Shown here: in pieces, positions 58 through 13,837 of the stretch | How the letters are laid out: the number at the start of each line of letters is the position of its first letter | Numbering within the stretch: position 1 is the first letter of the stretch | Source of the DNA: a virus | Lineage: Duplodnaviria; Heunggongvirae; Uroviricota; Caudoviricetes | Direction: 5' to 3' (one strand) | IMG/VR virus record: IMGVR_UViG_2531839180_000003 | Location: 1-21,890 of that record | DNA: 21,890 nt | The notes under the pieces: generated by a model | Database searches by the model: none | What the model was told of the DNA's origin: nothing | The model's input: the letters and a program-made list of their open reading frames with translations, nothing else | Translations under genes and position numbers: made by a program

Positions 58-363
58 TTACTCTGGTTCTTTGGTCTTGCGACGCTGGAGTTCTTCGCGT
101 GCAACGGTGACAAGCTGCCCGATTTCTTCCGCTGCTTTGATGCCGATTTGTTCGACCTTAGCCAGGGCATCCAGTGACGACACAAGGGGATTTTCTCCGC
201 TGCCTTCTGCTTGGCGGCGGGCTATTTCTCCGCGCATGGCGGTTACGATAAATCCGGCATTGCTTTCGCCGTCCAGCTTAACGGATTCCATCCCTTGCAT
301 AACATCTAGTGGGACTCTGACAGTTGTCAGTTGTGATTTTGCGTTTTTGTTAGCCGTTGCCAT
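58..363 (-). CDS. putative ribbon-helix-helix (Arc/CopG-like) transcriptional regulator
   Basis: 101-aa ORF. AGGAG Shine-Dalgarno (revcomp of 372-376) lies 8 nt upstream of the ATG. N-terminal strand-helix pattern LTTVRVPLDVMQGMESV resembles RHH folds. Sits back-to-back with the promoter/operator at 425-462. Family assignment is by eye only. Confidence 0.5.
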   Translation of the reverse strand: MATANKNAKSQLTTVRVPLDVMQGMESVKLDGESNAGFIVTAMRGEIARRQAEGSGENPLVSSLDALAKVEQIGIKAAEEIGQLVTVAREELQRRKTKEPE

Positions 364-424
364 TTCTGAAACTCCTAATCATCGGTGTGTTTCAGTATAC
401 ACAAAAAAAGAAATACAAAAAGCC

Positions 425-462
425 TTGACGTGTGTTTCATGCGCTCATAACATGAAACACAC
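425..462 (+). promoter_or_regulatory. sigma70-like promoter overlapped by a 12-bp perfect inverted repeat (operator candidate)
   Basis: -35 TTGACG at 425-430, 17-nt spacer, -10 TAACAT at 448-453. Inverted repeat GTGTGTTTCATG (430-441) / CATGAAACACAC (451-462) with a 9-bp spacer straddles the -10. Confidence 0.5.
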
Positions 463-560
463 CGAAAGGATTGTTGAAATACAAAGAGCAACGCCCCGCA
501 GTGCCGGAAACACATACGGGGCGTCTAACCACCAACGATAACGAGAGTATCGAGGCAGCT

Positions 561-764
561 ATGAGAAATCATACCATACACCCGCGAGGGCGGGATTCGC
601 ACAACCTGAATAAATTCACCTGGCGTTTTATCGCCCTGAGCGCCGCAAAACCGCGTGTGATTACCATCGTGGCCACCAGTGAACAGGAAGCCCGCCAGCA
701 ATCCCCGGCTGGCTGCGTGATGGTGTTCACCGCCCGTATCCGCAAGGAGGTGCGCCATGCCTGA
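561..764 (+). CDS. hypothetical small protein, first gene of rightward operon; start uncertain
   Basis: In-frame part of track ORF 471..764. ATG at 561 is preceded by GAGG. Stop overlaps the start region of the next gene. No recognisable motif. Confidence 0.3.
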   Translation: MRNHTIHPRGRDSHNLNKFTWRFIALSAAKPRVITIVATSEQEARQQSPAGCVMVFTARIRKEVRHA

Positions 765-1077
765 TATGTCAAATTACCAGTACCTGATTAATCCGCATTT
801 TAACTGTGAGCATGATATTGCTAAAAAGGTTTATTCCGCTGCGGATGGGGCTACTGACAATATATCAATGGCTGTTGCGTCAATTGGTAGCCTGATGTGG
901 CATGCGTCAGAAAATGAGGAATATGACGCAAAGGCCATGCGCATTGATATGGGTAATATCGGTTTGTTACTGGCAATGCTTGGACATTTTGATATTTCGT
1001 TACGGTGCACCATTGAAAATGCCACAGATGCATTAAATGCCATAAAGAAAGCGAATACTGATTCAAATCGGGGATAA
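757..1077 (+). CDS. hypothetical protein
   Basis: 106-aa ORF with a strong GGAGG Shine-Dalgarno at 742-746. Same strand and tight spacing with downstream genes. Confidence 0.55.
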   Translation: MPDMSNYQYLINPHFNCEHDIAKKVYSAADGATDNISMAVASIGSLMWHASENEEYDAKAMRIDMGNIGLLLAMLGHFDISLRCTIENATDALNAIKKANTDSNRG

Positions 1078-1083
1078 ATAATC

Positions 1084-1383
1084 ATGAGAACGTATTTATC
1101 TGGCTTGACTGCCAGCGGTTATGCACATCCCAAAATTATCCCCGGCGCTATTTATCGGGATAAGAACGGCAACAGAGTAACAGTAAAATCGATAATGTTT
1201 GACCGTGTGTACTTTATTCGTGATGGCTATTCATTTCATAGCTCGCTGAACGTGGAGATCTTTATTTGCAGATTCCGGCGGGAAATCCCGCCTTCCAGAA
1301 ATAACCATGTGTCACGTGTGGATGTGGATAAAAAACTACAGGAACTGAAAAACATGATTGCCGCGTGGAGAGAGCAGAAATGA
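1084..1383 (+). CDS. hypothetical protein
   Basis: 99-aa ORF with GGGGA upstream of the ATG. Its 3' end overlaps the start of the helicase gene, suggesting translational coupling. Confidence 0.5.
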   Translation: MRTYLSGLTASGYAHPKIIPGAIYRDKNGNRVTVKSIMFDRVYFIRDGYSFHSSLNVEIFICRFRREIPPSRNNHVSRVDVDKKLQELKNMIAAWREQK

Positions 1384-3197
1384 AAAAAGCGCCAAATTTA
1401 AAACACCAACCGCGTGACAAAATGACGGAAGTCATCATTTTTGCGGGTAGTGATGCGTGGGCACATGCGAAGCAGTGGCAGGAACAGGACGGGCGACTGG
1501 CTGGCGATAACGTGCCACCTGTCTGGCTTGGAGAGCAACAACTTGCCGAACTGGACAACCTGCAAATCGTACCAGACGGACGCTATCGCGTGCGTCTCTA
1601 TCAGGCGGGGTTATTGCGTCCGGGACTTGTTAATACCATCGGGCAGAAACTGGCAGCGGCAGGTGTCAGGGATGCTGATTATTACCCTGAAGGAATGCAC
1701 AGCCAGAAACGGGAGAACTGGCGCGAATATCTGGAGCGTGAGCGGGGAGAGCTGGCGGAAAAGAAAAAGGTAGTTGAACTGCCTGTAAAGAAAAAAGAGC
1801 GGGTAAAAGACGATAACGCTTCATCACTGGCGCTTAACCAGATGGGAGCAAGTCAACGCGGCGAAGTTCTCCTGGCACATTATGGTGGTGAACTGGCGAT
1901 TCATGCTGACTCTGACACTGTTCACCATTACAACGGCGTTGTATGGGAGCCGGTTCAGGATAAAGAGTTACAGCGTGCTATGGCGCAGATTTTCATTGAT
2001 GCGGAGATCAGCTATTCACAGAACGCTATTAAATCAGCGGTCGATACCATGAAGTTAAGTTTGCCTGTAATGGGGAATACAGCCCGTAACTTGATTGGAT
2101 TCAGTAACGGGGTATTTGATACCAGAACAGGTAATTTTCGGGAGCATAACAAAAACGACTGGTTGTTAATTGCCAGTGAATTACCGTTCAGCCCACCAGC
2201 AGAGGGGGAAACGCTGGCAACACATGCGCCGAATTTCTGGAAGTGGTTGCACCGTTCGGTGGCTGAGAATGATCGCAAAGCGGATCGTGTACTGGCGGCA
2301 TTATTCATGGTGCTGGCGAACAGATATGACTGGCAGTTATTCATTGAGGTAACTGGTCCTGGTGGAAGCGGTAAAAGCGTAATGGCGGAGATTTGCACCA
2401 TGCTGGCGGGTAAGGCTAATACAGTATCAGCAAGCATGAAGGCGCTGGAAGATGCAAGGGAACGTGCGTTAGTGGTTGGCTTTTCTCTGATTATCATGCC
2501 GGATATGACCCGCTACGCTGGTGATGGGGCAGGGATTAAGGCCATTACAGGCGGTGACAAGGTGGCAATTGACCCGAAACACAAAGCTCCCTACTCAACG
2601 CGTATTCCGGCAGTAGTGCTGGCGGTTAACAATAACGCCATGTCATTCAGTGACCGCAGCGGGGGGATCTCACGTCGTCGGGTGATATTCAATTTTTCGG
2701 AAGTTGTACCGGAGAACGAACGTGATTCGATGCTGGCGGAAAAAATAGAAGGTGAGCTGGCGGTAGTGATTCGCCATCTGCTTACACGGTTTGCTAACCA
2801 GGACGAAGCCAGACGCCTGTTATATGAGCAGCAGAAATCTGAAGAAGCACTGGCGATAAAGCGAGAGGGGGATTCGCTGGTGGACTTCTGCGGCTATCTC
2901 ATGGCGTCGGTAATGTGTGATGGCCTGTTAGTGGGTAATGCTGAAATTGTGCCATTCAGCCCGCGCAGATATCTCTATCATGCCTATCTGGCTTATATGA
3001 GGGCACATGGGTTTGGTAAACCTGTAACACTGACGCGCTTCGGTAAAGATATGCCGGGGGCAATGGCGGAATATGGCAGGGAGTATATGAAACGGAAAAC
3101 GAAGCACGGTTTGCGTTCAAACGTGACACTGACGGAGGAATCAGAAGACTGGATGCCATCATGTGTATCGGTCACTAATGACGATAGCAAAAATTAA
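1380..3197 (+). CDS. P4 alpha-family replication protein (D5/SF3-type helicase domain with Walker A GPGGSGKS)
   Basis: 605 aa from the ATG at 1380 (GGAGAGAG upstream; track ORF begins at 1365). Walker A TGPGGSGKS and Walker B-like LIIMPDM are followed by the motif layout typical of the phage/plasmid primase P4-family C-terminal region. An N-terminal primase active site cannot be confirmed by eye. The TGTTCACC iteron origin lies immediately downstream. Confidence 0.85.
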   Translation: MKKAPNLKHQPRDKMTEVIIFAGSDAWAHAKQWQEQDGRLAGDNVPPVWLGEQQLAELDNLQIVPDGRYRVRLYQAGLLRPGLVNTIGQKLAAAGVRDADYYPEGMHSQKRENWREYLERERGELAEKKKVVELPVKKKERVKDDNASSLALNQMGASQRGEVLLAHYGGELAIHADSDTVHHYNGVVWEPVQDKELQRAMAQIFIDAEISYSQNAIKSAVDTMKLSLPVMGNTARNLIGFSNGVFDTRTGNFREHNKNDWLLIASELPFSPPAEGETLATHAPNFWKWLHRSVAENDRKADRVLAALFMVLANRYDWQLFIEVTGPGGSGKSVMAEICTMLAGKANTVSASMKALEDARERALVVGFSLIIMPDMTRYAGDGAGIKAITGGDKVAIDPKHKAPYSTRIPAVVLAVNNNAMSFSDRSGGISRRRVIFNFSEVVPENERDSMLAEKIEGELAVVIRHLLTRFANQDEARRLLYEQQKSEEALAIKREGDSLVDFCGYLMASVMCDGLLVGNAEIVPFSPRRYLYHAYLAYMRAHGFGKPVTLTRFGKDMPGAMAEYGREYMKRKTKHGLRSNVTLTEESEDWMPSCVSVTNDDSKN

Positions 3198-3211
3198 ACT
3201 TATGGAATAAC

Positions 3212-3432
3212 TGTTCACCACTGTTCACCCTGTCATAAATATCTTTTATATCAGTATATTATAGGGTGAACAGTTATTTATGAACTGTTCACCAAACTAT
3301 TCACTGTTCACCTTTTTGATTGTTTATTGAGCTTCAAGGGTGAACAGTGGTGAACAGTTGGTGAATAGTTTTTGTGAAACTGTTCACCCCTTAACCTTAT
3401 GAATTAAAAGATAAAATATCAAAAGGTGAACA
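3212..3432. repeat. origin of replication: cluster of TGTTCACC iterons
   Basis: Exact TGTTCACC at 3212-3219, 3222-3229, 3286-3293, 3305-3312, 3381-3388. Exact reverse GGTGAACA at 3265-3272, 3339-3346, 3349-3356, 3425-3432. Degenerate copies at 3297-3304, 3360-3367, 3433-3440. An AT-rich spacer at 3232-3263 separates iteron groups. This octamer is the known binding site of P4 alpha in ori and crr. Confidence 0.8.
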
Positions 3433-3518
3433 GGTGAAGGGTTAAAACGCAAAAATTTTAATTTACTGCTGTGAGATAAAGACTATGACAGTAAAGCACA
3501 CAAAAATACGCGCTTGAT

Positions 3519-3719
3519 TTGACGGAACACTGGTTAAGGGTGTCGATAAAAATCATCGACCGCAACGCCGGGGAAGGATATGCGAAAGCACATCCCGAAC
3601 TGATTAGCGCATTCATGACAACGGCAGCTGCAAACTTTGCCACGCTGACAGAACGGGAGATTGCCGAAGCGGAACAGGTGACAACCATCAACGTTAAAAC
3701 CGGAGAGCAGACAGCATGA
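3519..3719 (+). CDS. hypothetical small protein (non-ATG start, uncertain)
   Basis: 66-aa ORF starting at TTG. Its stop overlaps the ssb start as ATGA, suggesting coupling. No clear Shine-Dalgarno. Confidence 0.35.
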   Translation: MTEHWLRVSIKIIDRNAGEGYAKAHPELISAFMTTAAANFATLTEREIAEAEQVTTINVKTGEQTA

Positions 3720-4141
3720 CAGCACAGATAGCGGCTTACGGGCGGCTGGTGGCTGACCCGCAGTTAAAGACCACCAGCAAGGGTACACAAATGACGATGG
3801 CTAGTATGGCGGTCCCCCTTCCGTGCAGCCAGGCAGATGACGGAACGGCGATGATGTGGTTATCCGTCCTGGCGTTTGGCAGACAGGCCGACGCACTGGC
3901 AAAACACCACAAAGGCGAACTGGTGAGCGTGGCGGGTAACATGCAGGTAAGCCAGTGGACAGGCCAGAACGGCGAAACGCGGCAGGGCTGGCAGGTTATC
4001 GCAGACAGCGTGATCAGTGCGCGAACAGCGCGTCCGGGCGGCAAAAAAGGCCAGCAGGGGCAGGCCACTGACGCACTGAACAGGGCAAAACAGCAGACGG
4101 GTCAGCACGATGATCCGTACGGGGACAACATACCGTTTTAG
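3716..4141 (+). CDS. ssb: single-stranded DNA-binding protein (SSB)
   Basis: 141 aa. OB-fold-like N-terminus (IAAYGRLVADPQL...), Gly/Gln-rich linker and C-terminal ...DDPYGDNIPF resembling the canonical SSB acidic tip DDDIPF. GGAGAG Shine-Dalgarno upstream. Confidence 0.8.
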   Translation: MTAQIAAYGRLVADPQLKTTSKGTQMTMASMAVPLPCSQADDGTAMMWLSVLAFGRQADALAKHHKGELVSVAGNMQVSQWTGQNGETRQGWQVIADSVISARTARPGGKKGQQGQATDALNRAKQQTGQHDDPYGDNIPF

Positions 4142-4163
4142 CGACAACAGAGGGGACATTCCA

Positions 4164-4406
4164 GTGACATTTGAAGAAGTCCAGCAACATAAAAAGTTTC
4201 ATGATTTTGATGATCTGGAAACCATGACAGCAAAAAAATATCGCCGTCTGCTTTCTTCCGATGCGTTGTTTGTTGTGGATCATCATGATTTTCTGCGTAG
4301 CTCACTGACCGGGGAAATTTTCGCAACCAACCGTGAGCAGGTGGAAGCGATGATCGAATATCTGTGGAAAATAAGGCGCAGAATGCGAGATCCCGTGAAA
4401 CGGTAA
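4164..4406 (+). CDS. hypothetical protein (start ambiguous between ATG 4110 and GTG 4164)
   Basis: Track ORF 4110..4406. The ATG at 4110 overlaps ssb by 32 nt. The in-frame GTG at 4164 is preceded by GAGGGGA. Followed by the terminator at 4415-4443. Confidence 0.4.
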   Translation: MTFEEVQQHKKFHDFDDLETMTAKKYRRLLSSDALFVVDHHDFLRSSLTGEIFATNREQVEAMIEYLWKIRRRMRDPVKR

Positions 4407-4414
4407 AATAATAA

Positions 4415-4443
4415 AGGCCTGGTAAAATCCAGGCCATTTTTTT
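4415..4443. terminator. bidirectional rho-independent terminator between convergent genes
   Basis: Stem AGGCCTGG (4415-4422) / CCAGGCCA (4429-4436), loop TAAAAT, then a T-run to 4443. The upstream A-run gives a U-tract on the opposite strand. Confidence 0.7.
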
Positions 4444-4948
4444 ACAGTAAGCCTATTAGGGCACTTGCGCCAGCCCCAACAATGCTGGCAACGGTACTGT
4501 TTTCCAGTAACTGCTTTAATACTGATTTGGCTTGTACATCCCCCGATTTAGCGACTTTTTCAACCAGTTCAGTGATGCTGATGTTTACCAGCATATGGTT
4601 ATGCTCACCTATCTGCACTTGATCACCACTAATTGAACCAATGTTAAATGTATTACTTTTAGTTGGCGTCATATGTTCATTTCCCGTGATATTTTCAATA
4701 TAGAGAGTCAACATATTTGGATGATTGGTTCCCTGTCTGCGGGTTCCATTGGGAAGCAACTTCATATCTATAATTTTTAGATTTATCTCGTTTTTACCGA
4801 CACGCTGGATAATGTGTTGACCAATAGTTACTTCCGGTTCATTTGTATATGGAATTAATACCTTGTTTTCTTTTGCGTTTCTTTTACCTCTGAATGATTC
4901 GCCATTAATTATGAAAGTATCAGGATATACCATTGCGCTTAAATTCAT
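4442..4948 (-). CDS. hypothetical AT-rich protein with short hydrophobic C-terminal tail (accessory gene candidate)
   Basis: 168-aa ORF and the only minus-strand gene inside the 363-11547 plus-strand block. AAAGGA Shine-Dalgarno upstream. Possible -10 TATTAT / -35 TTTACA on the minus strand at 4980-5010. C-terminus STVASIVGAGASALIGLL. No recognisable family. Confidence 0.65.
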   Translation of the reverse strand: MNLSAMVYPDTFIINGESFRGKRNAKENKVLIPYTNEPEVTIGQHIIQRVGKNEINLKIIDMKLLPNGTRRQGTNHPNMLTLYIENITGNEHMTPTKSNTFNIGSISGDQVQIGEHNHMLVNISITELVEKVAKSGDVQAKSVLKQLLENSTVASIVGAGASALIGLL

Positions 4949-5234
4949 GATGCGTCCTTTGTTGTAGTCAGAGACAGCAATAATAGGCCATGGTTTACTT
5001 CTTTTGTAAATTATTTGTTCGTGTTCTTTCGTGGTTGTTCGGTCTGACTGACAGGTGTTTACATACTGATTTTTATGTATATGTTGGAGCGTGGCACTCA
5101 GACGTGAGCCGCCACAATGCCGCCTGACCCCCTGCGCGATGCCGGGTTGATCTGCGAGATGCCGAGAGTGTCGGGCGGCGCTCCCCCCGTGTTGGTTTCA
5201 CGTCCTGAATCTTAACCAATACGAGAAAACCTTC

Positions 5235-6404
5235 ATGAAGAAATTAATCGAACTCCGCCAGCAAAAAAACGCCCTGAAAAACCAGATGCGATCCCTGCTG
5301 GAAAAAGCCGACAGTGAAAACCGTAGTCTGAACGCTGAAGAAGGCAAACAGTTTGATGAACTGCGTGCAAAAGCTGATGCCCTCGACACAGAAATTTCCC
5401 GCCTCGAGTCTGTGGCTGATGAAGAACGCAGCAAGCCAGGAACGGGCATCCAGAAATTATCATCTGATGAATTGCGTAACTACATCGTAACCGGAGATGT
5501 GCGATCACTGTCCACCAGCACTGACAGCGGCAGGGATGGCGGATATACCGTAATTCCTGAGCTTGATCGCGAAGTCATGCGCCAGCTACAGGATGACAGT
5601 GTTATGCGCGTGATCGCGACCGTGAAGACCGCAAAATCAAATGAGTTTCAGAAACTGGTTTCCACTGGCGGCGCAACTGTAGGACGAGGCACAGAAGGCA
5701 GCGCACGCAGTGAAACCAACACCCCGAAAATTGAACGCGTAACCATCAAGTTGAATCCGATCTACGCCTACCCGAAAACCACGCAGGAAATCCTGGATTT
5801 TTCAGAGGTGGATATTCTGGGCTGGTTATCCTCCGAAATTGCCGACACGTTCGCCAGCACCGAAGAGGATGATTTTGTTAATGGCGACGGTAACGGCAAG
5901 CCGAAAGGCTTCATGGCTTACACCCGTGCGGCGACCAGTGACAAAACCCGCGCTTTTGGCACCATTGAAAAAATAGTAGCGGCAAGTGGAACCGCCATTA
6001 CAGCGGACGAACTGATCGACATTCTCTACAAGCTGAAAGCGAAATACCGCAAAAATGCCGTCTGGGTGATGAACTCGGGCACGGCAGGGACACTACAGAA
6101 GCTGAAAAATGAGAACGGCGATTATATCTGGCGCGACAGCCTTAAAGAAGGTGCGCCGGATATGTTGCTTGGTCGTCCTGTTTACTGCCTGGAGTCCATG
6201 CCGGACATCGGCGCAGGAAAAGCACCGCTAGCGGTTGGCGATTTCAGTCGTGGTTATTTCATCGTTGATCATGTAACAGGGATTCGCACCCGACCGGACA
6301 ACATTACTGAACCCGGATTCTACAAGGTCCACACGGATAAATATCTGGGCGGTGGTGTGGTGGATTCAAACGCCATCAAAATTCTGGAAATGAAAGCTGG
6401 CTAG
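5235..6404 (+). CDS. HK97-family major capsid protein with N-terminal coiled-coil delta domain
   Basis: 389 aa. Coiled-coil N-terminus (LRQQKNALKNQMRSLLEKA...), then capsid body with the NGDGNGKPKG motif matching HK97 gp5 NGDGTG and a conserved C-terminal region. Confidence 0.9.
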   Translation: MKKLIELRQQKNALKNQMRSLLEKADSENRSLNAEEGKQFDELRAKADALDTEISRLESVADEERSKPGTGIQKLSSDELRNYIVTGDVRSLSTSTDSGRDGGYTVIPELDREVMRQLQDDSVMRVIATVKTAKSNEFQKLVSTGGATVGRGTEGSARSETNTPKIERVTIKLNPIYAYPKTTQEILDFSEVDILGWLSSEIADTFASTEEDDFVNGDGNGKPKGFMAYTRAATSDKTRAFGTIEKIVAASGTAITADELIDILYKLKAKYRKNAVWVMNSGTAGTLQKLKNENGDYIWRDSLKEGAPDMLLGRPVYCLESMPDIGAGKAPLAVGDFSRGYFIVDHVTGIRTRPDNITEPGFYKVHTDKYLGGGVVDSNAIKILEMKAG

Positions 6405-6416
6405 TCATGAGTAAGG

Positions 6417-6438
6417 AGGAGGCTGCGGCCTCCTTTTT
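6417..6438 (+). terminator. intrinsic terminator or attenuator immediately after the major capsid gene
   Basis: Stem AGGAGGC (6417-6423) / GCCTCCT (6428-6434), loop TGCG, then TTTT (6435-6438), 13 nt after the capsid stop codon. Confidence 0.55.
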
Positions 6439-6458
6439 CAGCTTTATGGAGTACACCG

Positions 6459-7019
6459 ATGAAAAACACCGATTTTGAAATCCGCACATCTGAACTGACC
6501 GCCAGCAATAAAAAGCTGGTGGGGTATGCCGTTCGCTGGAACAGCCTTTCAGAAATTATCTGGGACGAATTCCGCGAACAGTTCACGCCGGGGGCTTTTG
6601 CTGACTATCTGGCGACGGGTAATGATGTGCGCTGCCTGTATGAGCATGACTATACCCAACTGCTGGGGCGCACCAAATCCGGCACTCTGGTACTGACTGA
6701 GGATAACACCGGGTTACGTTTTGAACTGACACCGCCGGATACCCAGCTTGGAAAAGATGTGCTTACGCTGGTGGAGCGTGGCGACATTACAGGAATGAGC
6801 TTTGGTTTTCGCGCATTATGCGAGGAGTGGAGTATCGCGCAAAAACCGTATCTGCGTACCGTAACCGCCGCTGAACTCCGTGAAATCACAATAACGTCGA
6901 TGCCTGCTTATCCAGAATCTGGCGTGGAGATTGCCCACCGTTCGTTGTTTGCACAGCACCCTGAATTACGTCCGACAGGAAATAATCGTCATCGCTGGTC
7001 TGAGCTGGCGGGGTTGTGA
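6459..7019 (+). CDS. HK97-family prohead protease
   Basis: 186 aa with GGAG Shine-Dalgarno. Motifs such as GMSFGF and the overall pattern fit the prohead serine protease (S78) family. Position is adjacent to capsid and portal. Confidence 0.8.
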   Translation: MKNTDFEIRTSELTASNKKLVGYAVRWNSLSEIIWDEFREQFTPGAFADYLATGNDVRCLYEHDYTQLLGRTKSGTLVLTEDNTGLRFELTPPDTQLGKDVLTLVERGDITGMSFGFRALCEEWSIAQKPYLRTVTAAELREITITSMPAYPESGVEIAHRSLFAQHPELRPTGNNRHRWSELAGL

Positions 7020-7020
7020 T

Positions 7021-8235
7021 ATGTGGTGGCCTTTTAGTCGTAAAAAAAGCGAGCAGCGTAACCTGTCCATTGATGATTTTCTGGCGCTGTCCGGCGTACC
7101 GAATACCGGATCCGGAGAATATGTTTCTGCTGGGACGGCTGAATCATTGCCTGCAGTGATGAATGCGGTTTCTGTCATCGCTGAGGCGGTGGCCACGATG
7201 CCGTGTTATCTGTATCTGGTACGTAATGACAAGGGCAGGGAGGCGCGGGAATGGCTGGACAGTCACCCGGTAGATATTCTGCTGAATGAGCAGCCTAATT
7301 CGTGCCAGACACCTTACCAGTTTAAACGCACAATGATGCGTCACTGCCTGCTGAACGGTAACGCCTATGCGGTTATTGAGTGGGGGCAGGACGGGCAGCC
7401 AAAATCACTTCATCCTTATGCGCCGAGGTGTGTTGTACCGGAACGCACAGGCGCACACAAATACCGCTATACCATCACCGAACCCTGTACAGGAACGGTG
7501 CGCACGTATTTACAGGAAGAAGTTTTGCATCTCCGCTATGCCTCGGATGATGGCTTTCTGGGGCGTTCCCCCGTCACGATTTGCCGTGAGGCGCTGGGGC
7601 TTGGCCTTGCTCAACAGCGTCACGGAGCCAGCATTATGAAAGATGGCATGATGGCGGCAGGGATTATCACGTCAGGCGAATGGCTGGACGGCGTGAAAGG
7701 TAAACAGGCATTGGATGCTCTGGAACGCTACAAGGGGGCGAAAAATGCCGGAAAAACGCCAATCCTTGAAGGGGGCATGGATTACAGGCAACTGGGAATG
7801 AGTAACCAGGATGCGGAATGGCTGGCCTCCCGTCGCTTCTCCATTGAAGACATCGCCCGCATGTTCAACGTATCGCCTATTTTTCTGCAGGAATACAGCA
7901 ACAGCACCTACAGCAATTTCAGCGAGGCAAGCCGCGCGTTTCTGACCATGACAATGCGCCCGTGGCTGGCGAACTTCGAACAGCAAATCAAGGCCGCTTT
8001 GCTGGTGGCTTCTCCCGTACCTGGTACCCGTTATCTGGTTGAGTTTGATTCAGCCGATTTATTACGCGCCACACCCACCGAACGTTATGCCACGTATGAG
8101 AAAGGGATTAAGAACGGGATCATGAATCCGAACGAAGCCCGTGAGCGTGAGGGTATGCCGCCGCGTGAAGGTGGTGATGAGTTCAGCCAGGCATGGAAAC
8201 AGACTGTGGAAATTAAAGGGAGAAAAGATGAGTGA
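7021..8235 (+). CDS. HK97-family portal protein
   Basis: 404 aa from the ATG at 7021, directly after the protease stop (track ORF extends to 6931). Portal-like C-terminal region ...NPNEAREREGMPP. Confidence 0.85.
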   Translation: MWWPFSRKKSEQRNLSIDDFLALSGVPNTGSGEYVSAGTAESLPAVMNAVSVIAEAVATMPCYLYLVRNDKGREAREWLDSHPVDILLNEQPNSCQTPYQFKRTMMRHCLLNGNAYAVIEWGQDGQPKSLHPYAPRCVVPERTGAHKYRYTITEPCTGTVRTYLQEEVLHLRYASDDGFLGRSPVTICREALGLGLAQQRHGASIMKDGMMAAGIITSGEWLDGVKGKQALDALERYKGAKNAGKTPILEGGMDYRQLGMSNQDAEWLASRRFSIEDIARMFNVSPIFLQEYSNSTYSNFSEASRAFLTMTMRPWLANFEQQIKAALLVASPVPGTRYLVEFDSADLLRATPTERYATYEKGIKNGIMNPNEAREREGMPPREGGDEFSQAWKQTVEIKGRKDE

Positions 8236-8530
8236 AGCCAGAATTACACCTGATGAAGTCAGGGCACATCTTCGACTTGATGATGATTTATCCGGTGAAG
8301 GCGAACTTCTGAAAATGTATACCGATGCGGCGCTGGAAGCCTGCCAGAAGCATATCGGGAAACGTTTTGAAGACGGGCTGGAATTTACCCCGGCAATGCG
8401 TGTTGGTTGCCTGATGTACATCGCTTTCCTGTACGAGAACCGGGAAGCGGTTTCACCAGTGGAGCACTCGGAACTGCCTATGGCTATTTCTGCGCTCTGG
8501 TCAGTTTATCGTGACGTAGGGGTGTACTGA
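8228..8530 (+). CDS. gp6-like head-tail connector (head completion) protein
   Basis: 100 aa from the ATG at 8228, overlapping the portal stop as ATGAGTGA, with AGGGAG Shine-Dalgarno. Pattern RAHLRLDDD...AALEA...FLYENRE is typical of phage gp6-like connectors. Confidence 0.7.
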   Translation: MSEARITPDEVRAHLRLDDDLSGEGELLKMYTDAALEACQKHIGKRFEDGLEFTPAMRVGCLMYIAFLYENREAVSPVEHSELPMAISALWSVYRDVGVY

Positions 8531-8970
8531 TGCCGTGGCAACCATTAAGGCGATGCACTGAGCCTGGCTGTAATAAGCGCGTGAAGTCCGGCAAGTGTGA
8601 AGAGCACAGGCGGGCTGCATGGCGTGCAGAGGATGCCAGACGGGGACACCGCCGCGCGCGCGGGTATTCCCGACAGTGGGACAAATACCGCGCCCTGTAC
8701 CTGAGCAAAAACCCGTTATGCGTGCGTTGTCTGGCTAAGGGGATTTATACGCCAGCTCTTGTGGTGGATCACATCATTCCCATCAATGGCGGCGGTGATG
8801 TTCTCTTCTGGCCTGAGTGGAATCACCAGGCATTGTGCCAGACGTGCCACAACCGTAAGACGACACGAGAAGATCCAGCCACGAAAGCAAACCGTAAAGC
8901 GGGCATGTATCGCGAGCAGGAAGAACGGGCGGCACACCGTAACGACTGGATGTATGGCGATGATGACTGA
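8530..8970 (+). CDS. phage-associated HNH endonuclease
   Basis: 146 aa. Cys pairs (CTEPGC, CVRC, CQTCHNRK) and VDHIIP...N...H fit an HNH zinc-binding nuclease. Start overlaps the connector stop as TGATG. Lies upstream of terS as in HK97-type cos phages. Confidence 0.85.
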   Translation: MPWQPLRRCTEPGCNKRVKSGKCEEHRRAAWRAEDARRGHRRARGYSRQWDKYRALYLSKNPLCVRCLAKGIYTPALVVDHIIPINGGGDVLFWPEWNHQALCQTCHNRKTTREDPATKANRKAGMYREQEERAAHRNDWMYGDDD

Positions 8971-9258
8971 ACAGGAGCAAACCAGGCTGATACGTGGACT
9001 GATAAGGCAGCGTGACACATGGAAGACACAGGAGACAGAGCACAAAGCCAACAGGACTGGGCGCACAAAACGCACCACAGCGAAGCGATTAACCGACCGT
9101 GACCGCGAGGTCATGGAATGTTTTCGCAATCGCTGGTGAGGCCGTCAGAGGGGGTGGGGGTGGTTTTCAGGACGAAACCGTCCCTGCCGGACACCGACCG
9201 CCCCCTCAAATTTTTGTGCACGGTAATTTTTTTGAAAATAATTGGGCGAAAAAAGAAC

Positions 9259-9615
9259 ATGGCAAGACCACCAAAAGCCCCCGCTTACCTGGATGAAATC
9301 GCGGTCAGGCAGTGGAAGGAAAAATCGCGCCAGCTTTCCGGGCGGGAAGACCTTACCCCCGCCGACTGGAGCAATCTGGAACTGTATTGCGTTAACTACT
9401 CTATATACCGCAAAGCCGTCGAAGACCTTGCGACGCGCGGGTTCAGCATTGTTAACAGTCAGGGCAGCGAGAGCAGAAACCCCGCACTGAGCGCAAAGGC
9501 TGACGCAGAAAGAATAATGATCAAAATGGCTTCTTTGCTGGGTTTTGACCCGGTAAGCCGTCGCAGAAATCCACCGGAAACAGAGGAAGAGGACGAACTT
9601 GACCGCCTGGCATGA
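9259..9615 (+). CDS. terS: terminase small subunit (P27-family-like)
   Basis: 118 aa from the ATG at 9259; the track ORF from 9118 has a low-complexity N-terminal extension that is probably non-coding. MARPPKAP...LDE...W...LELYC pattern and position directly upstream of terL. Confidence 0.7.
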   Translation: MARPPKAPAYLDEIAVRQWKEKSRQLSGREDLTPADWSNLELYCVNYSIYRKAVEDLATRGFSIVNSQGSESRNPALSAKADAERIMIKMASLLGFDPVSRRRNPPETEEEDELDRLA

Positions 9616-11260
9616 GTACGCAGAAGGCGTAAAAAACGGCAAAATTACGGCCTGTAAACGACTGAAACAGGCTGTTAAACGGTATTTTTCTGACCTTGAA
9701 AACTCCCTTTACACGTTCGATCCGGAGGTCGTGGAGCGGTTTATTGCCTTTTCCCGGGTGTGCCCGCACGTAAAAGGCGCAATGCGCGGTAGCCCCATTG
9801 AACTTGAGCCGTGGCAGCAGTTCGCCTTTGCCTGCATCCTGGGATTTAAGGTTAAGGCCACCGGACGGCGCAAATACACCAGCGCATTCATTGAAGTACC
9901 GCGAAAAAATGCCAAATCCACGGTCGCCGCTATCCTGGCTAACTGGTTTCTGGTTATGGAAAACGGGCAGCAGGATATTTACACCGCCGCCGTGAGTCGT
10001 GATCAGGCGCGGATCGTGTTTGATGATGCGCGTCAGATGTGCCTTTTATCCCGACCGTTACGAAAGCGGGTAAATATTCAGGCGCACAAGGTGATACACC
10101 CGAAAACCAACAGCCTGTTAAAGCCACTGGCAGCAAAAGCGGCAACCATTGAGGGGACAAACCCGAGTCTTGCCATTGTGGATGAATATCACCTGCACCC
10201 AGACAACGGGGTTTATTCCGCACTTGAACTGGGGATGGGGGCGCGTCCGGAGGGGCTGTTATTTGCCATCACCACATCGGGGAGCAACGTTGTTTCAGCC
10301 TGTAAACAACACTACGACTATTGCTGCCAGATACTGGATGGTGAAGAGGTGAACGAATCCATGTTCGTACTGATTTACGAGCTGGATGATGAAAGCGAGG
10401 TTGACGATCCGGCGATGTGGATAAAGGCGAATCCCAATATCGATGTTTCCGTCGATCGTGAAAAACTGGCCTCAACCATCCAGAAAGCGCGGGGTATTCC
10501 GTCGCAGTGGGTGGAAATGCTCACCAAGCGATTCAATATCTGGTGTCAGGGGGCTACGCCGTGGATGGGTAACGGTGCATGGGCGGAGTGCGCCGGAACG
10601 TTCGCTGAGGCGGATTTATACGGGCAGGAGTGCTATGCGGGGCTGGACTTATCATCAACCAGCGATATTTCCAGCGTGTGCTATGCCTTTCCGGTCGGTA
10701 AAAAGATTATGCTGGTTTCACGTCACTATCTACCGGAATTTCAGCTACAGAACCCTGCCAATAAAAACCGCGCCATCTATCGCCAGTGGGCAAAGGCGGG
10801 CTGGATACGCACAACACCGGGTGACTGCATTGATTATGACCGTATCCGTGATGACATCATGGCGGATGCAGAGAATTTCAATATCAGGCTGGTGGGTTTC
10901 GATACATGGAACGCCACGCACCTGAGGACGCAGCTACAGGGAGCGGGATTTGAGGTGGAGCCGTTCCCGCAAACGTACCTTCGTTTTAGTCCGGCGGCGA
11001 AATCGTTCGAAGTTTTTGTTAACCGGAAGGTGATTGTTCATCGTGGTGATCCGGTGCTGGCCTGGTCAATGAGTAATGTTGTGATGCAGAGTGACGCGAA
11101 CGCCAATATCAAGCCGAACAAGAAAAAATCATCCAATAAGATAGACCCGAGCGTTGCGGCGCTGATGGCGTTTGGCACATTCCAGGCTGAGCATGAGGAA
11201 TTTGCATTTGATATGAGCGACAGCCAGAAAGAGCGACTTGCGGCATTTGATGGGGTATGA
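9599..11260 (+). CDS. terL: terminase large subunit
   Basis: 553 aa from a TTG start at 9599, preceded by GAGGAAGAGGA, overlapping terS by 17 nt. ATPase N-terminal domain and nuclease C-terminal domain pattern typical of Terminase_1-type large subunits. Confidence 0.9.
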   Translation: MTAWHEYAEGVKNGKITACKRLKQAVKRYFSDLENSLYTFDPEVVERFIAFSRVCPHVKGAMRGSPIELEPWQQFAFACILGFKVKATGRRKYTSAFIEVPRKNAKSTVAAILANWFLVMENGQQDIYTAAVSRDQARIVFDDARQMCLLSRPLRKRVNIQAHKVIHPKTNSLLKPLAAKAATIEGTNPSLAIVDEYHLHPDNGVYSALELGMGARPEGLLFAITTSGSNVVSACKQHYDYCCQILDGEEVNESMFVLIYELDDESEVDDPAMWIKANPNIDVSVDREKLASTIQKARGIPSQWVEMLTKRFNIWCQGATPWMGNGAWAECAGTFAEADLYGQECYAGLDLSSTSDISSVCYAFPVGKKIMLVSRHYLPEFQLQNPANKNRAIYRQWAKAGWIRTTPGDCIDYDRIRDDIMADAENFNIRLVGFDTWNATHLRTQLQGAGFEVEPFPQTYLRFSPAAKSFEVFVNRKVIVHRGDPVLAWSMSNVVMQSDANANIKPNKKKSSNKIDPSVAALMAFGTFQAEHEEFAFDMSDSQKERLAAFDGV

Positions 11261-11265
11261 CGAGA

Positions 11266-11547
11266 ATGACTGAAACTGATCTACTAAAAATAATTCGCCG
11301 CATTACCGGAATCAGTCAGCAGCCTGACGAACAGGCTACACAGCCGGACAGCGTGATAGCCGAAAATTACGCGCGTGTGGTGGCTGAGGTAATGCGCCGT
11401 GACGGTATTGAGCTTAACGGCGTGGATATGCGCAACATACGAACCAGAGTTCTTGAGTTGCTGGCATACCGTCGCCGTTCTCAACAACGGAGGGAGAGCG
11501 CGAAAAATACTTACCAGTGGAGGAAGCCGGAGCACTTACGGCGGTAA
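11266..11547 (+). CDS. hypothetical protein
   Basis: 93 aa from the second in-frame ATG just after the terL stop. No recognisable motif. Confidence 0.4.
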   Translation: MTETDLLKIIRRITGISQQPDEQATQPDSVIAENYARVVAEVMRRDGIELNGVDMRNIRTRVLELLAYRRRSQQRRESAKNTYQWRKPEHLRR

Positions 11548-13727: not shown

Positions 13728-13837
13728 TAATTTGGGTGATGTCATAGTTTTACTGAATTTTCAGTGATATAAATCATGTAAAAATAAGGTGTTCTACGTA
13801 AGGCTATTTTTCTATACACAGCTAGCATAAAGGATTA

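What the first reader, a model, noticed from the sequence alone, without database searches (positions are those of the whole stretch)
4442..4948. Orphan AT-rich minus-strand gene embedded between the replication and capsid modules
This is the only minus-strand gene within ~11 kb of co-directional plus-strand genes. It is markedly AT-rich, has its own ribosome-binding site and a possible promoter, and shares a bidirectional terminator with the upstream operon. The 168-aa product has no recognisable family and ends in a short hydrophobic, Gly/Ala-rich tail (STVASIVGAGASALIGLL) that could act as a membrane anchor. This layout is typical of horizontally acquired accessory genes such as abortive-infection, superinfection-exclusion or helper-interference functions.
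Basis: partly seen in the sequence, partly recalled or inferred. Interest (0 to 1): 0.7.

Follow-up and report, generated by a model that had tools for sequence, protein, structure and literature searches.

The report
RHIM-like tail-anchored satellite cargo gene
A small, foreign-looking gene sits in a fixed insertion slot of an E. coli phage satellite; it encodes a variable head, a short motif resembling the animal necroptosis (RHIM) amyloid motif and a greasy C-terminal tail, and is most likely an untested one-protein anti-phage suicide or exclusion switch.

Summary
Window 4442-4948 (-) is a real 168-aa gene under purifying selection, with 38% GC against 50% around it. It lies in a capsid-forming PICI satellite, between the replication genes and the capsid gene.

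It is optional cargo. Satellites with 98.5-98.7% identical capsid genes have this slot empty, hold a two-gene version, or hold a version with a different N-terminal domain. Outside Enterobacterales, relatives lie in prophage accessory regions and cassette-like gene arrays.

- a fast-evolving N-terminal beta domain;
- an invariant hydrophobic-Q-hydrophobic-G-x-x-N motif, predicted disordered;
- two helices;
- a conserved hydrophobic Gly/Ala tail at the extreme C-terminus.

The motif-helix-tail module is fused to at least 20 unrelated N-terminal domains. Pfam RHIM is the only Pfam hit, below threshold. A profile of the module searched against the PDB returns RIPK1 RHIM fibrils as its top four hits.

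In the two-gene version, a tail-less paralogue that keeps the motif sits directly upstream of the tail-bearing gene. Gene pairs that share an amyloid signalling motif have this layout.

Best reading: a single-chain sensor-effector that self-assembles through the RHIM-like motif and damages the membrane. Function and mechanism are inferred, not shown.

The parts
4442..4948 (-). Complete coding sequence (168 aa plus stop) of the cargo gene, WP_001053662.1, PHROG 5789
   Evidence: dN/dS about 0.17
4673..4948 (-). N-terminal 'type A' domain, aa 1-92: small all-beta domain, proposed sensor or specificity domain, fast-evolving
   Evidence: AlphaFold pLDDT 83-91 across most of the domain, six strands. 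dN 0.45-0.48 here against 0.07-0.08 for the C-terminal module. Replaced by unrelated domains in relatives. No significant fold match.
4574..4654 (-). RHIM-like motif, aa 99-125, NTFNIGSISGDQVQIGEHNHMLVNISI; core VQIGEHN = 4598-4618
   Evidence: Q112, G114 and N117 are invariant. Pfam RHIM 15.4 bits, below the cut-off of 20. Profile search of the PDB returns RIPK1 RHIM as the top 4 hits. Shuffle control 0/5000. pLDDT 47-61.
4499..4573 (-). Helical linker, aa 126-150 (TELVEKVAKSGDVQAKSVLKQLLEN)
   Evidence: helices 125-134 and 138-149; conserved L-V-E-x-V-A-x-S-x-D-x-x-A-K
4445..4498 (-). C-terminal hydrophobic Gly/Ala-rich tail, aa 151-168 (STVASIVGAGASALIGLL), proposed membrane-inserting element
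   Evidence: Kyte-Doolittle 1.91; helix 151-167; 135 of 202 family proteins end exactly here; lost in the tail-less partner paralogues
4955..4959 (-). Shine-Dalgarno sequence AAGGA, 6 nt upstream of the ATG
4980..5010 (-). Candidate hybrid leftward promoter: backbone TTTACA (5005-5010), 19 nt, cargo-borne TATTAT (4980-4985)
   Evidence: Not found by the scan. TTTACA lies in an 11-nt block invariant in 7 loci and also present in empty-slot elements. Other cargo alleles place TATGAT or TATCAT 16-19 nt from it.
4416..4435 (.). Bidirectional terminator hairpin shared with the upstream plus-strand operon. The left arm is backbone and the right arm arrives with the cargo.
4423..4985 (.). Approximate extent of the cargo insertion relative to empty-slot satellites
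   Evidence: alignment with KSC9 and OkiPb01704 elements

Best explanation
The gene is optional cargo (a 'moron') in a defined insertion slot of a capsid-forming phage-inducible chromosomal island (cf-PICI). It encodes a single-chain sensor-effector.

Shown here:
1. It is a real, selected, AT-rich insertion of about 560 bp that is present or absent in near-identical satellite backbones.
2. The protein has four parts: a variable N-terminal beta domain; a roughly 27-residue N/Q/S/T/G plus I/V/L/F motif with an invariant hydrophobic-Q-hydrophobic-G-x-x-N core; two helices; and a hydrophobic Gly/Ala tail at the extreme C-terminus.
3. The motif-helix-tail module is conserved while the N-terminal domain evolves about six times faster. 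In relatives the N-terminal domain is replaced by at least 20 unrelated domains.
4. The motif is reciprocally most similar to the RHIM amyloid motif of RIPK1, at sub-threshold scores.
5. In sister satellites, a paralogue that has lost the tail but kept the motif sits immediately upstream of a tail-bearing copy.

Inferred:
- The N-terminal domain recognises a phage-derived or infection-derived cue.
- Recognition releases the disordered motif to self-assemble into a RHIM/amyloid-like higher-order polymer.
- The polymer clusters the C-terminal tails in the inner membrane and collapses membrane integrity. The infected cell dies or stalls before the phage completes its cycle (abortive infection).
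- This protects the satellite-carrying clone against non-helper or competing phages.
- In the two-gene version, a tail-less sensor would signal to the tail-bearing protein through the shared motif.
For: Accessory status:
- The slot is empty in elements with capsid genes 98.5-98.7% identical, with precise junctions.
- The full-length gene is in 51 E. coli genomes, while 108 carry a capsid gene at least 90% identical.
- GC is 37.9% against 50.4%.
- In Kluyvera, Pluralibacter, Enterobacter, Klebsiella and Photorhabdus satellites it occupies the same slot, divergent from the capsid gene.
- Elsewhere it lies in a P2-like prophage accessory region next to HEPN and S8-peptidase genes.
- It also lies in a lambdoid phage between Rz and the terminase genes, and in arrays of small co-oriented ORFs separated by attC-like repeats.
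- Some neighbours match PD-Lambda-2, PDC-S02, PDC-S20 and a type II methyltransferase.

Modularity:
- 267 relatives in the exhaustive search.
- Of 202 proteins with the full module, 125 match the type A N-domain profile. The 55 others with an N-terminal region of at least 55 aa fall into 22 BLAST clusters, the largest of which is probably distant type A.
- dN is 0.45-0.48 in the N-domain and 0.07-0.08 in the C-module.

Motif:
- 186 of 202 proteins carry [IVLFM]Q[IVLF]GxxN.
- In the motif-anchored stack of 185 of these, the flanking 31 residues are 53% N/Q/S/T/G, 33% I/V/L/F and 0.4% Pro.
- Pfam RHIM is the only Pfam hit for the window protein (15.4 bits). It is matched by 7 of 38 family members, best 17.1 bits.
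- The module profile searched against 177,635 PDB sequences gives RIPK1 RHIM fibril constructs as hits 1-4 (E 0.06-0.11).
- None of 5000 composition-preserving shuffles of those RIPK1 segments reaches the real score (16.2-16.4 bits against a maximum of 10.4).
- The motif is the most conserved segment, yet it is predicted at low confidence in both N-domain types (pLDDT 47-61; below 50).

Gene pairs:
- The 254-aa upstream protein shares the motif and helices with its neighbour (BLASTP E 9e-7).
- For four tail-less partner clusters adjacency to a tail-bearing gene was seen directly. For four more it is inferred only from matching contig lengths.
- The one type B member with an intact tail whose context was examined stands alone.

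Precedent: amyloid-motif signalling drives an E. coli abortive-infection system, Bab/Agp (bioRxiv 10.1101/2024.11.07.622273). RHIM-like BASS3 motifs form prion-like fibrils (bioRxiv 10.1101/2020.01.06.895854).
Against: - There is no experimental evidence of any kind. No expression data, toxicity data or phage challenge were available.
- The RHIM similarity is below Pfam's gathering score and has E about 0.06-0.1 in the reciprocal search. A short N/Q/G/I/V motif could be convergent, or could simply be a beta-hairpin within a conventional oligomer.
- No PADLOC defence model matches.
- Defence-gene enrichment among neighbours was not quantified and is modest.
- In the window the gene is solo and the motif occurs only once. 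No signalling partner is therefore present.
- The motif is internal, not terminal as in known amyloid signalling pairs.
- The tail is only 17-18 residues and rich in small residues. It could be a protein-protein interface or itself a beta-forming segment rather than a transmembrane helix.
- Motif residues do not clearly co-vary within pairs: VQLG/VQLG in E. coli but VQFG/VQIG in Enterobacter soli.
- No fold match identifies what the N-terminal domain binds.
Confidence: 0.4

Rival explanations
1. Superinfection exclusion without cell death. The tail anchors the protein in the inner membrane. The N-terminal domain faces the cytoplasmic side and blocks genome entry or an early membrane-associated step of incoming phages. 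The conserved motif only mediates ordinary oligomerisation.
For: The hydrophobic tail sits at the extreme C-terminus. The gene occupies moron-type positions in a satellite and in a lambdoid phage between the lysis and terminase genes. Variable N-terminal domains would fit different phage targets. From general knowledge, phage morons such as HK97 gp15 and P22 SieA are small inner-membrane exclusion proteins.
Against: It does not explain why a disordered N/Q-rich RHIM-like segment is the most conserved part. It also does not explain why tail-less paralogues that keep the motif sit next to tail-bearing copies. A tail-anchored protein would place the N-terminal domain in the cytoplasm, away from the periplasmic side where most known exclusion proteins act.
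Confidence: 0.2
2. A satellite life-cycle function. Examples are interference with helper-phage capsid or lysis timing (holin or antiholin-like), or an assembly accessory for the satellite's own capsids, expressed divergently from the capsid operon's control region.
For: In Enterobacterales the gene always lies next to, and divergent from, the capsid operon promoter region. The leftward promoter appears to use a backbone element that sits beside conserved capsid-operon control sequences. A distant homologue follows the lysis cassette in a lambdoid phage.
Against: It is absent from satellites with near-identical packaging modules, including the O157:H7 element, so it is not needed for the life cycle. 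Close family members lie in contexts with no capsid module at all. It has only one hydrophobic segment, at the C-terminal end, which is unlike canonical holins.
Confidence: 0.07
3. A membrane-active toxin that stabilises its mobile element or acts in bacterial competition (addiction or post-segregational killing, or a bacteriocin-like peptide), unrelated to phage.
For: It is a small AT-rich gene on mobile elements and in cassette-like arrays. It has a hydrophobic Gly/Ala tail reminiscent of small membrane toxins.
Against: There is no conserved adjacent antitoxin or immunity gene in the window or in most loci. It has no signal peptide or secretion partner. The large conserved modular architecture with swapped N-terminal domains is more typical of sensor-effector immune proteins.
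Confidence: 0.08

Closest known systems
RHIM (RIP homotypic interaction motif, Pfam PF12721) of RIPK1, RIPK3, ZBP1, TRIF and viral mimics
   Same: Both have the core tetrad (I/V)-Q-(I/V/L)-G followed by N at +5 from the Q, flanked by N/S/T/G and I/V residues. Window VQIGEHNHM compares with IQIGNHNYM (mouse RIPK1) and IQIGAYNYM (human RIPK1) in the alignments. Each is the other's best match in profile searches, and the match is order-specific.
   Different: Scores are below Pfam's cut-off. The host is bacterial and mobile-element-borne. The motif is embedded between a beta domain and a helix-plus-tail segment instead of next to a kinase or a Z-DNA-binding domain. Amyloid formation is untested. 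Homology versus convergence is undecided.
BASS3 / Bell-NLR amyloid signalling pairs of filamentous bacteria (Dyrka et al., bioRxiv 10.1101/2020.01.06.895854)
   Same: Both involve a RHIM-like motif in bacteria linked to a putative membrane-targeting death effector. In sister loci, adjacent genes share the motif.
   Different: BASS motifs sit at the C-terminus of Bell-domain effectors and the N-terminus of NLRs. They were reported in multicellular Actinobacteria and Cyanobacteria. Here the motif is internal, there is no Bell, NB-ARC or NACHT domain, hosts are mostly unicellular Gammaproteobacteria, and the usual form is a single gene.
Bab/Agp (BASS11) abortive-infection system of E. coli ECOR25 (Ibarlosa et al., bioRxiv 10.1101/2024.11.07.622273)
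   Same: Both are carried on E. coli mobile elements and encode a small protein that combines an amyloid-type motif with a hydrophobic membrane-targeting element. The proposed outcome is abortive infection through membrane damage.
   Different: Bab is a 109-aa helical Bell-like domain with an N-terminal hydrophobic helix and a C-terminal BASS11 motif, and it needs the 1094-aa TPR-GreA/B-PIN sensor Agp. The window protein has a beta N-domain, a different (RHIM-like) motif, a C-terminal tail and no partner. There is no sequence relationship (no shared Pfam or PADLOC hit).
HET-S/HET-s and HELLP (PP motif) of filamentous fungi
   Same: The proposed logic is the same: an amyloid motif switches on a membrane-inserting segment of the same polypeptide.
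   Different: The fungal effectors use an N-terminal HeLo or HELL helical domain with the motif at the C-terminus. The order is reversed here and the domains are unrelated.
Immune cargo of PICIs, P4-like satellites and prophage hotspots (general knowledge: Fillol-Salom et al. 2022 Cell; Rousset et al. 2022 Cell Host Microbe); integron cassettes as defence reservoirs (e.g. PMC12614218)
   Same: Both are compact cargo at a fixed hotspot of a satellite, in variable alleles with an empty state, AT-rich and independently transcribed. Distant homologues lie in cassette-like arrays.
   Different: No described system in PADLOC v2.0.0 matches. This slot in cf-PICIs (replication operon terminator to capsid promoter) was not found described in the papers searched.

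Membership tests
Pfam RHIM (PF12721) | Score at or above the curated gathering threshold (20 bits) | tested here: not met
   15.4 bits for the window protein; best family member 17.1 bits; 7 of 38 members match at E<=1
Pfam RHIM (PF12721) | Core tetrad (I/V)Q(I/V/L/C)G with flanking N and beta-prone residues | tested here: met
   VQIG with N at +5. 186 of 202 family proteins carry [IVLFM]Q[IVLF]GxxN; in the motif-anchored stack of 185 of these the flanks are 53% N/Q/S/T/G and 0.4% Pro
Pfam RHIM (PF12721) | Reciprocal similarity to bona fide RHIM sequences | tested here: inconclusive
   Top 4 of 177,635 PDB sequences are RIPK1 RHIM constructs, but E is 0.06-0.11. The shuffle control gives 0/5000.
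Pfam RHIM (PF12721) | Forms cross-beta hetero- or homo-amyloid | not testable with these tools
   Only indirect evidence: low pLDDT of a highly conserved segment
Amyloid signalling gene pairs (BASS/FASS type) | The same short motif in the products of two adjacent genes | tested here: not met
   In the window the motif occurs once in all six frames. It is met in sister loci L015, L017, L020 and L041.
Amyloid signalling gene pairs (BASS/FASS type) | Motif at the C-terminus of the effector and the N-terminus of an NLR-type (NB-ARC/NACHT) receptor | tested here: not met
   The motif is internal (aa 99-125 of 168). No NLR, Bell or HeLo domain is found by Pfam.
Capsid-forming PICI (host element) | Integrase, AlpA/regulatory genes and a primase-type replication module, plus its own HK97 capsid, protease, portal, connector, HNH, TerS and TerL, with no tail or lysis genes | tested here: met
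   RefSeq annotation of the identical element in SMS-3-5 and 90-9280. The family is named from the literature.
Known anti-phage defence systems (PADLOC-DB v2.0.0) | Match to any defence-protein HMM | tested here: not met
   0 families at E<=10 for the window protein. 0 for the partner protein and for P0280.
Tail-anchored inner-membrane protein | A single hydrophobic segment within the last ~30 residues, and membrane insertion | tested here: inconclusive
   Kyte-Doolittle 1.91 over aa 152-168 and a helix in the model. The segment is only 17-18 residues and Gly/Ala/Ser-rich. Insertion is not testable here.
Integron gene cassette (for distant homologues only) | Flanking attC sites in an array next to intI | tested here: inconclusive
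   In Xanthomonas L004 there are 55-nt repeats (CTAAC, inverted repeat, GTTA) between small co-oriented ORFs, and other palindromic repeats flank the homologue. No integrase or attC model was searched.

The most novel reading that the evidence does not exclude
The motif is a genuine RHIM/BASS3-type amyloid switch. This family would then be a widespread class of one-protein anti-phage sensors on satellites, prophages and cassette arrays of unicellular Proteobacteria. More than 20 alternative sensor heads would drive the same amyloid-triggered membrane-killing tail. Tail-less sensors would signal in trans by templating their tail-bearing neighbour. That would be a minimal bacterial counterpart of RHIM-driven necroptosis, evolving on mobile elements.
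Probability: 0.25. Interest if true: 0.85.

Novelty: new variant of a known kind. Interest (0 to 1): 0.65.

Why it matters
If the reading is right, several things follow.

- RHIM-like amyloid switching would extend beyond animals, fungi and filamentous bacteria into ordinary enterobacteria and their phage satellites.
- It would appear in the simplest form so far: sensor, switch and killing element in one 168-residue chain.
- The family supplies a natural series of swapped sensor heads, tail-less signalling partners and empty-slot controls. The mechanism is therefore directly testable with point mutants and phage panels.
- It would define a new cargo hotspot in capsid-forming PICIs. This bears on how these broadly transferred satellites pay their way in the host.

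If the reading is wrong, the gene is still a clean example of presence/absence cargo with an unexplained, strongly conserved module.

Tried and rejected
Searches that found nothing useful:
- NCBIfam and PADLOC gave no family; Pfam gave only the sub-threshold RHIM hit.
- Foldseek of the AlphaFold model against the PDB and BFVD gave no hit at E<=0.001 with a consistent fold. Weak PilZ, split-barrel, sortase and Hcp resemblances were considered and dropped. TM-scores were 0.2-0.3, and the PilZ RxxxR and D/NxSxxG motifs are not present by inspection.
- The type B partner model also gave no fold match.
- A word-index search with the C-terminal 70 aa returned only fragments.
- Literature searches for the accession numbers, for PHROG 5789 and for RHIM-like phage defence found no description of this family.

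Leads rejected:
- Two apparent fusions of the N-domain to other C-termini (P0141 with a GNAT domain, P0147) were discounted as likely frameshift or gene-calling artefacts, because the motif region is scrambled.
- The idea that motif residues co-vary within gene pairs (VQLG/VQLG in E. coli) did not hold in Enterobacter soli, which has VQFG/VQIG.
- The invariant ATAATTTACAA block upstream of the gene first looked like the gene's own promoter. It is also present in empty-slot satellites, so it is backbone sequence.
- A Pfam L1R_F9L match in 6 members was treated, without inspecting the matched region, as probable similarity to the hydrophobic tail only.
Full report
1. What is in the sequence

The ORF at 4442-4948 (minus strand, ATG, 168 aa) exists as described. 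It is 100% identical to WP_001053662.1, annotated 'hypothetical protein', in E. coli SMS-3-5, O114:H49 90-9280 and other complete genomes.

RefSeq annotation of the identical element shows this gene order: integrase, DUF6387, HTH, Icd-like, DUF4222, primase, SSB, a small hypothetical gene, this gene on the opposite strand, then HK97-type major capsid, prohead protease, portal, connector, HNH, TerS and TerL. There are no tail or lysis genes. This is the gene content of a capsid-forming PICI, or cf-PICI (literature located).

- Composition: ORF GC is 37.9% (GC3 35%) against 50.4% for the island.
- Translation signal: an AAGGA Shine-Dalgarno sequence lies 6 nt before the ATG.
- Terminator: a GC-rich hairpin at 4416-4435 with T-runs on both strands sits between the convergent stop codons.
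- Orientation: one other minus-strand gene lies at the left edge of the window (about 47-352). Otherwise the block from about 550 to 11547 is co-directional.

2. It is a real gene and optional cargo

The word-index search gave 98 homologues of nearly constant length. The exhaustive profile search gave 267. Against a 93%-identical allele, dN/dS is 0.035/0.203.

In 5,426 complete E. coli genomes:
- 108 carry a capsid gene at least 90% identical;
- 51 carry the full-length ORF;
- 25 more match only its 3' part.

Elements in strains KSC9 and OkiPb01704 have capsid genes 98.5-98.7% identical, yet show a 275-nt intergenic region and no gene here. The slot is also empty in strain 700481 and in an O157:H7 cf-PICI.

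Aligning full and empty elements places the insertion at about 4423-4985.
- The left junction lies in the loop of the replication-operon terminator. The backbone supplies GGCCYGG and each cargo brings its own right arm.
- The right junction abuts a backbone block, TTTTGTAAATTATTTGTTCG, which is also present in empty elements.
- The 11-nt ATAATTTACAA that is invariant in seven diverged loci is therefore backbone sequence.
- Its TTTACA (5005-5010) could serve as a -35 element for cargo-borne -10-like hexamers 16-19 nt away: TATTAT here, TATGAT or TATCAT in other alleles.
- The consensus scan itself found no minus-strand promoter. Expression is therefore plausible but not shown.

3. Where else the family occurs

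In Enterobacterales it always occupies the same cf-PICI slot, divergent from the capsid gene. This holds for E. coli, Klebsiella, Kluyvera, Pluralibacter, Enterobacter and Photorhabdus.

Outside Enterobacterales there is no capsid module nearby. The contexts are:
- Pseudomonas: the accessory end of a P2-like prophage, beside HEPN_RiboL-PSP and S8-peptidase genes.
- A lambdoid E. coli phage: a 28%-identical homologue lies between Rz and the terminase genes.
- Xanthomonas, Shewanella, Marinomonas and others: arrays of small co-oriented ORFs separated by repeats. The Xanthomonas repeats look like attC sites (CTAAC, inverted repeat, GTTA).
- Further hits come from Campylobacterota, Thermodesulfobacteriota, Kiritimatiellales and Flavobacteriaceae assemblies.

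Among 141 neighbouring ORFs at 17 non-satellite loci, a few match PD-Lambda-2 A and B, PDC-S02, PDC-S20 and a type II methyltransferase. Others are Mu-like prophage or IS genes. This fits mobile accessory DNA with some defence neighbours, but I did not quantify enrichment.

4. Anatomy of the protein

AlphaFold with a 38-sequence alignment (mean pLDDT 79) gives:
- a six-stranded beta domain, aa 1-90 (pLDDT 83-91 across most of it);
- a disordered stretch, aa 93-100;
- a low-confidence hairpin, aa 103-113 (pLDDT 47-61);
- helices 125-134 and 138-149;
- a terminal helix, aa 151-167.

The tail STVASIVGAGASALIGLL is the hydropathy maximum (1.91).

In the family alignment the invariant residues cluster in the low-confidence segment: I103, Q112, G114 and N117, with G108 nearly invariant. 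The tail is nearly invariant too.

The N-domain diverges about six times faster than the C-terminal part. dN is 0.45-0.48 against 0.07-0.08 for the L016, L019 and L010 alleles.

5. The C-terminal module is shared by many different heads

Two relatives, P0096 and P0097, occupy the same cf-PICI slot. They have an unrelated N-terminal 105 aa joined to the same motif-helix-tail segment.

In the exhaustive search, many proteins of 147-251 aa match only profile positions about 90-168. Of 202 proteins with the complete module, 125 match the type A N-domain profile. The 55 others with an N-terminal region of at least 55 aa fall into 22 BLAST-unrelated clusters. One cluster is probably distant type A. 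Others include a zinc-ribbon-like head and several helical heads.

The module consensus is N-I-G-x-I-x-x-x-x-V-Q-[VIL]-G-N-x-N-x-Q ... N-I-x-I-x-x-L-V-E-x-V-A-x-S-x-D-x-E-A-K-S-x-L-K-x-L-L-E-N-S-T-V-A-S-I-x-G-A-G-A-S-x-L-L-x-L-L. In 135 of 202 proteins the polypeptide ends exactly at the end of the module.

A variable head on a constant C-terminal module is the usual layout of sensor-effector proteins in conflict systems. That is an inference from general knowledge.

6. The motif resembles RHIM

The only Pfam match of the window protein is RHIM (PF12721): aa 110-119, 15.4 bits against a cut-off of 20, E 0.014. Seven of 38 family members match it, the best at 17.1 bits. A protein with an unrelated head (P0257) matches it as well.

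I ran two controls on this similarity.
- Reciprocal search. A profile of 26 modules taken from different heads was searched against all 177,635 distinct PDB sequences. The top four hits were RIPK1 RHIM fibril constructs (9m6m, 8ib0, 9hr6, 8z93), at E 0.06-0.11. The alignment was i-n-i-g-n-i-n-g-s-q-v-Q-v-G-n-e-N-s-q-t-i against [21 protein letters not shown].
- Shuffle control. None of 5,000 composition-preserving shuffles of these RIPK1 segments reached the real score: 16.2-16.4 bits against a maximum of 10.4.

Across the family, 186 of 202 proteins carry [IVLFM]Q[IVLF]G-x-x-N. In a motif-anchored stack of 185 of these, the 31-residue window is 53% N/Q/S/T/G, 33% I/V/L/F, 0.4% Pro and 7% charged.

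The resemblance is therefore specific and reciprocal, but statistically sub-threshold. It supports 'RHIM-like' and does not establish membership or homology.

7. A natural experiment: tail-less partners

In some E. coli satellites (NZ_OX030728, MS6198; capsid 98% identical), in Enterobacter soli and in a metagenomic cf-PICI, the slot holds two co-directional genes. The first is a 236-254-aa protein and the second a 168-170-aa type A protein.

- The upstream protein has a different, helical head ('type B').
- It shares only the motif and helices with its neighbour: NIFNIATVNSQYVQLGTNNNINIQELSEFFSKIAS against NTFNIGNISGTQVQLGKHNNLIVNLSITELVEKVSQS (BLASTP 33.5 bits, E 9e-7 over 76 aa).
- It lacks the hydrophobic tail.

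The type B family of 21 clusters forms a series.
- P0280 has an intact tail and stands alone.
- P0169 and P0213, from the representative search, also have an intact or near-intact tail. Their genomic context was not examined.
- P0277 and P0278 have charged residues in the tail.
- The remaining members have no tail.

Four tail-less clusters were seen directly adjacent to a tail-bearing type A gene. Four more are inferred to share a contig with one, from matching contig lengths only.

The invariant N...Q-x-G-x-x-N is kept in the tail-less proteins. Its AlphaFold confidence is again below 50.

Adjacent genes whose products share a short amyloid-type motif are the genomic signature by which amyloid signalling pairs were discovered (10.1101/2020.01.06.895854). 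One such pair, Bab/Agp, is an experimentally shown abortive-infection system in E. coli (10.1101/2024.11.07.622273).

In the window itself the gene is solo and the motif occurs once.

8. Most likely mechanism, and how sure

I commit to the following model. It is a single-chain sensor-effector carried as satellite cargo.
- The N-terminal head senses an infection cue.
- The RHIM-like segment then self-assembles into a higher-order, probably cross-beta, polymer.
- The clustered C-terminal tails insert into and damage the inner membrane.
- The outcome is abortive infection, or at least arrest of infection.

My confidence by step:
- Real accessory gene: about 0.95.
- Role in phage or mobile-element conflict: about 0.6.
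- The specific assembly-plus-membrane mechanism: about 0.4.

Rivals:
- Non-lethal superinfection exclusion by a tail-anchored blocker (0.2).
- A satellite life-cycle or lysis-timing role (0.07). Empty slots in near-identical satellites and non-satellite contexts argue against it.
- A phage-unrelated membrane toxin (0.08). The absence of any antitoxin or immunity partner argues against it.

9. Comparison with known systems, and novelty

It works like RHIM, HET-S, BASS and Bab systems: a motif-controlled membrane effector. It is not a member of any of those families.
- The Pfam RHIM threshold is not met.
- It has no Bell, HeLo or NLR domains.
- The motif is internal rather than terminal.
- The hydrophobic element is at the C-terminus rather than the N-terminus.
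- The common form is one gene.
- It matches no PADLOC v2.0.0 model.
- I found no paper describing it.

I rate it a new variant of a known kind, pending experiments.

10. Limits

Everything functional is inferred.
- The motif statistics are marginal.
- Two of the structure-search libraries were unavailable.
- The N-terminal fold gave no lead.
- Neighbour enrichment for defence genes was not quantified.
- No multimer modelling or amyloid-propensity software could be run.

Noticed in passing
window 5058-5125 (and 5185-5234): The capsid-operon control region is strongly conserved across diverged cf-PICIs. A plus-strand promoter-like site, TTTACA-16-TATGTT (5058-5085), is followed at once by an invariant 25-nt palindromic block, GTGGCACTCAGACGTGAGCCGCCAC (5091-5115), and by an invariant GGTTTCACGTC near the capsid RBS. 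It is probably an operator or a 5'-UTR element controlling late (packaging) genes.
   Followed up: partly
window 12369-15286: Downstream of the satellite the window does not continue into thiM as in SMS-3-5 and 90-9280. It carries a second integrase-like ORF (12369-13727; Pfam Phage_integrase 25 bits, below cut-off) and a 482-aa AAA_15/AAA_21 ATPase (13838-15286; PADLOC Old 1.5e-45, also AriA/GajA-like) in 36-39% GC DNA. This may be a second integrative element with an OLD-family defence gene in tandem with the cf-PICI.
   Followed up: partly
L015 2476-3779 (NZ_OX030728), L017, L020 5159-6510, L041 6001-7240: A two-gene allele occupies the same slot: a tail-less 'type B' protein (236-254 aa) directly upstream of a tail-bearing type A protein, sharing only the RHIM-like motif and helices. 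Type B proteins show a graded loss of the hydrophobic tail (intact in P0280, charged residues in P0277 and P0278, none in P0260-P0270).
   Followed up: yes
L004 6689-11540 and 8859-9564 (Xanthomonas sacchari); L013 (Shewanella algae): Distant homologues lie in arrays of small co-oriented ORFs separated by repeats. In Xanthomonas, 55-nt repeats have attC-like ends (CTAAC ... GTTA) and an internal inverted repeat, and a second palindromic repeat flanks the homologue on both sides. This suggests chromosomal integron cassettes. In Shewanella algae the identical protein sits at two different chromosomal loci.
   Followed up: partly
window 3716-4406 versus L006, L008, L044, L045, L046: The segment between SSB and the slot is itself variable among related satellites. 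A PerC-family regulator or a ProQ/FinO-family gene is present in some elements and absent in the window.
   Followed up: no
window 4445-4498 (aa 151-168): The tail contains GAGAS, resembling the silk-fibroin GAGAGS beta-sheet repeat and the Gly/Ala-rich hydrophobic cores of PrP and A-beta (comparison from memory). The tail might therefore be beta-forming rather than a transmembrane helix.
   Followed up: no
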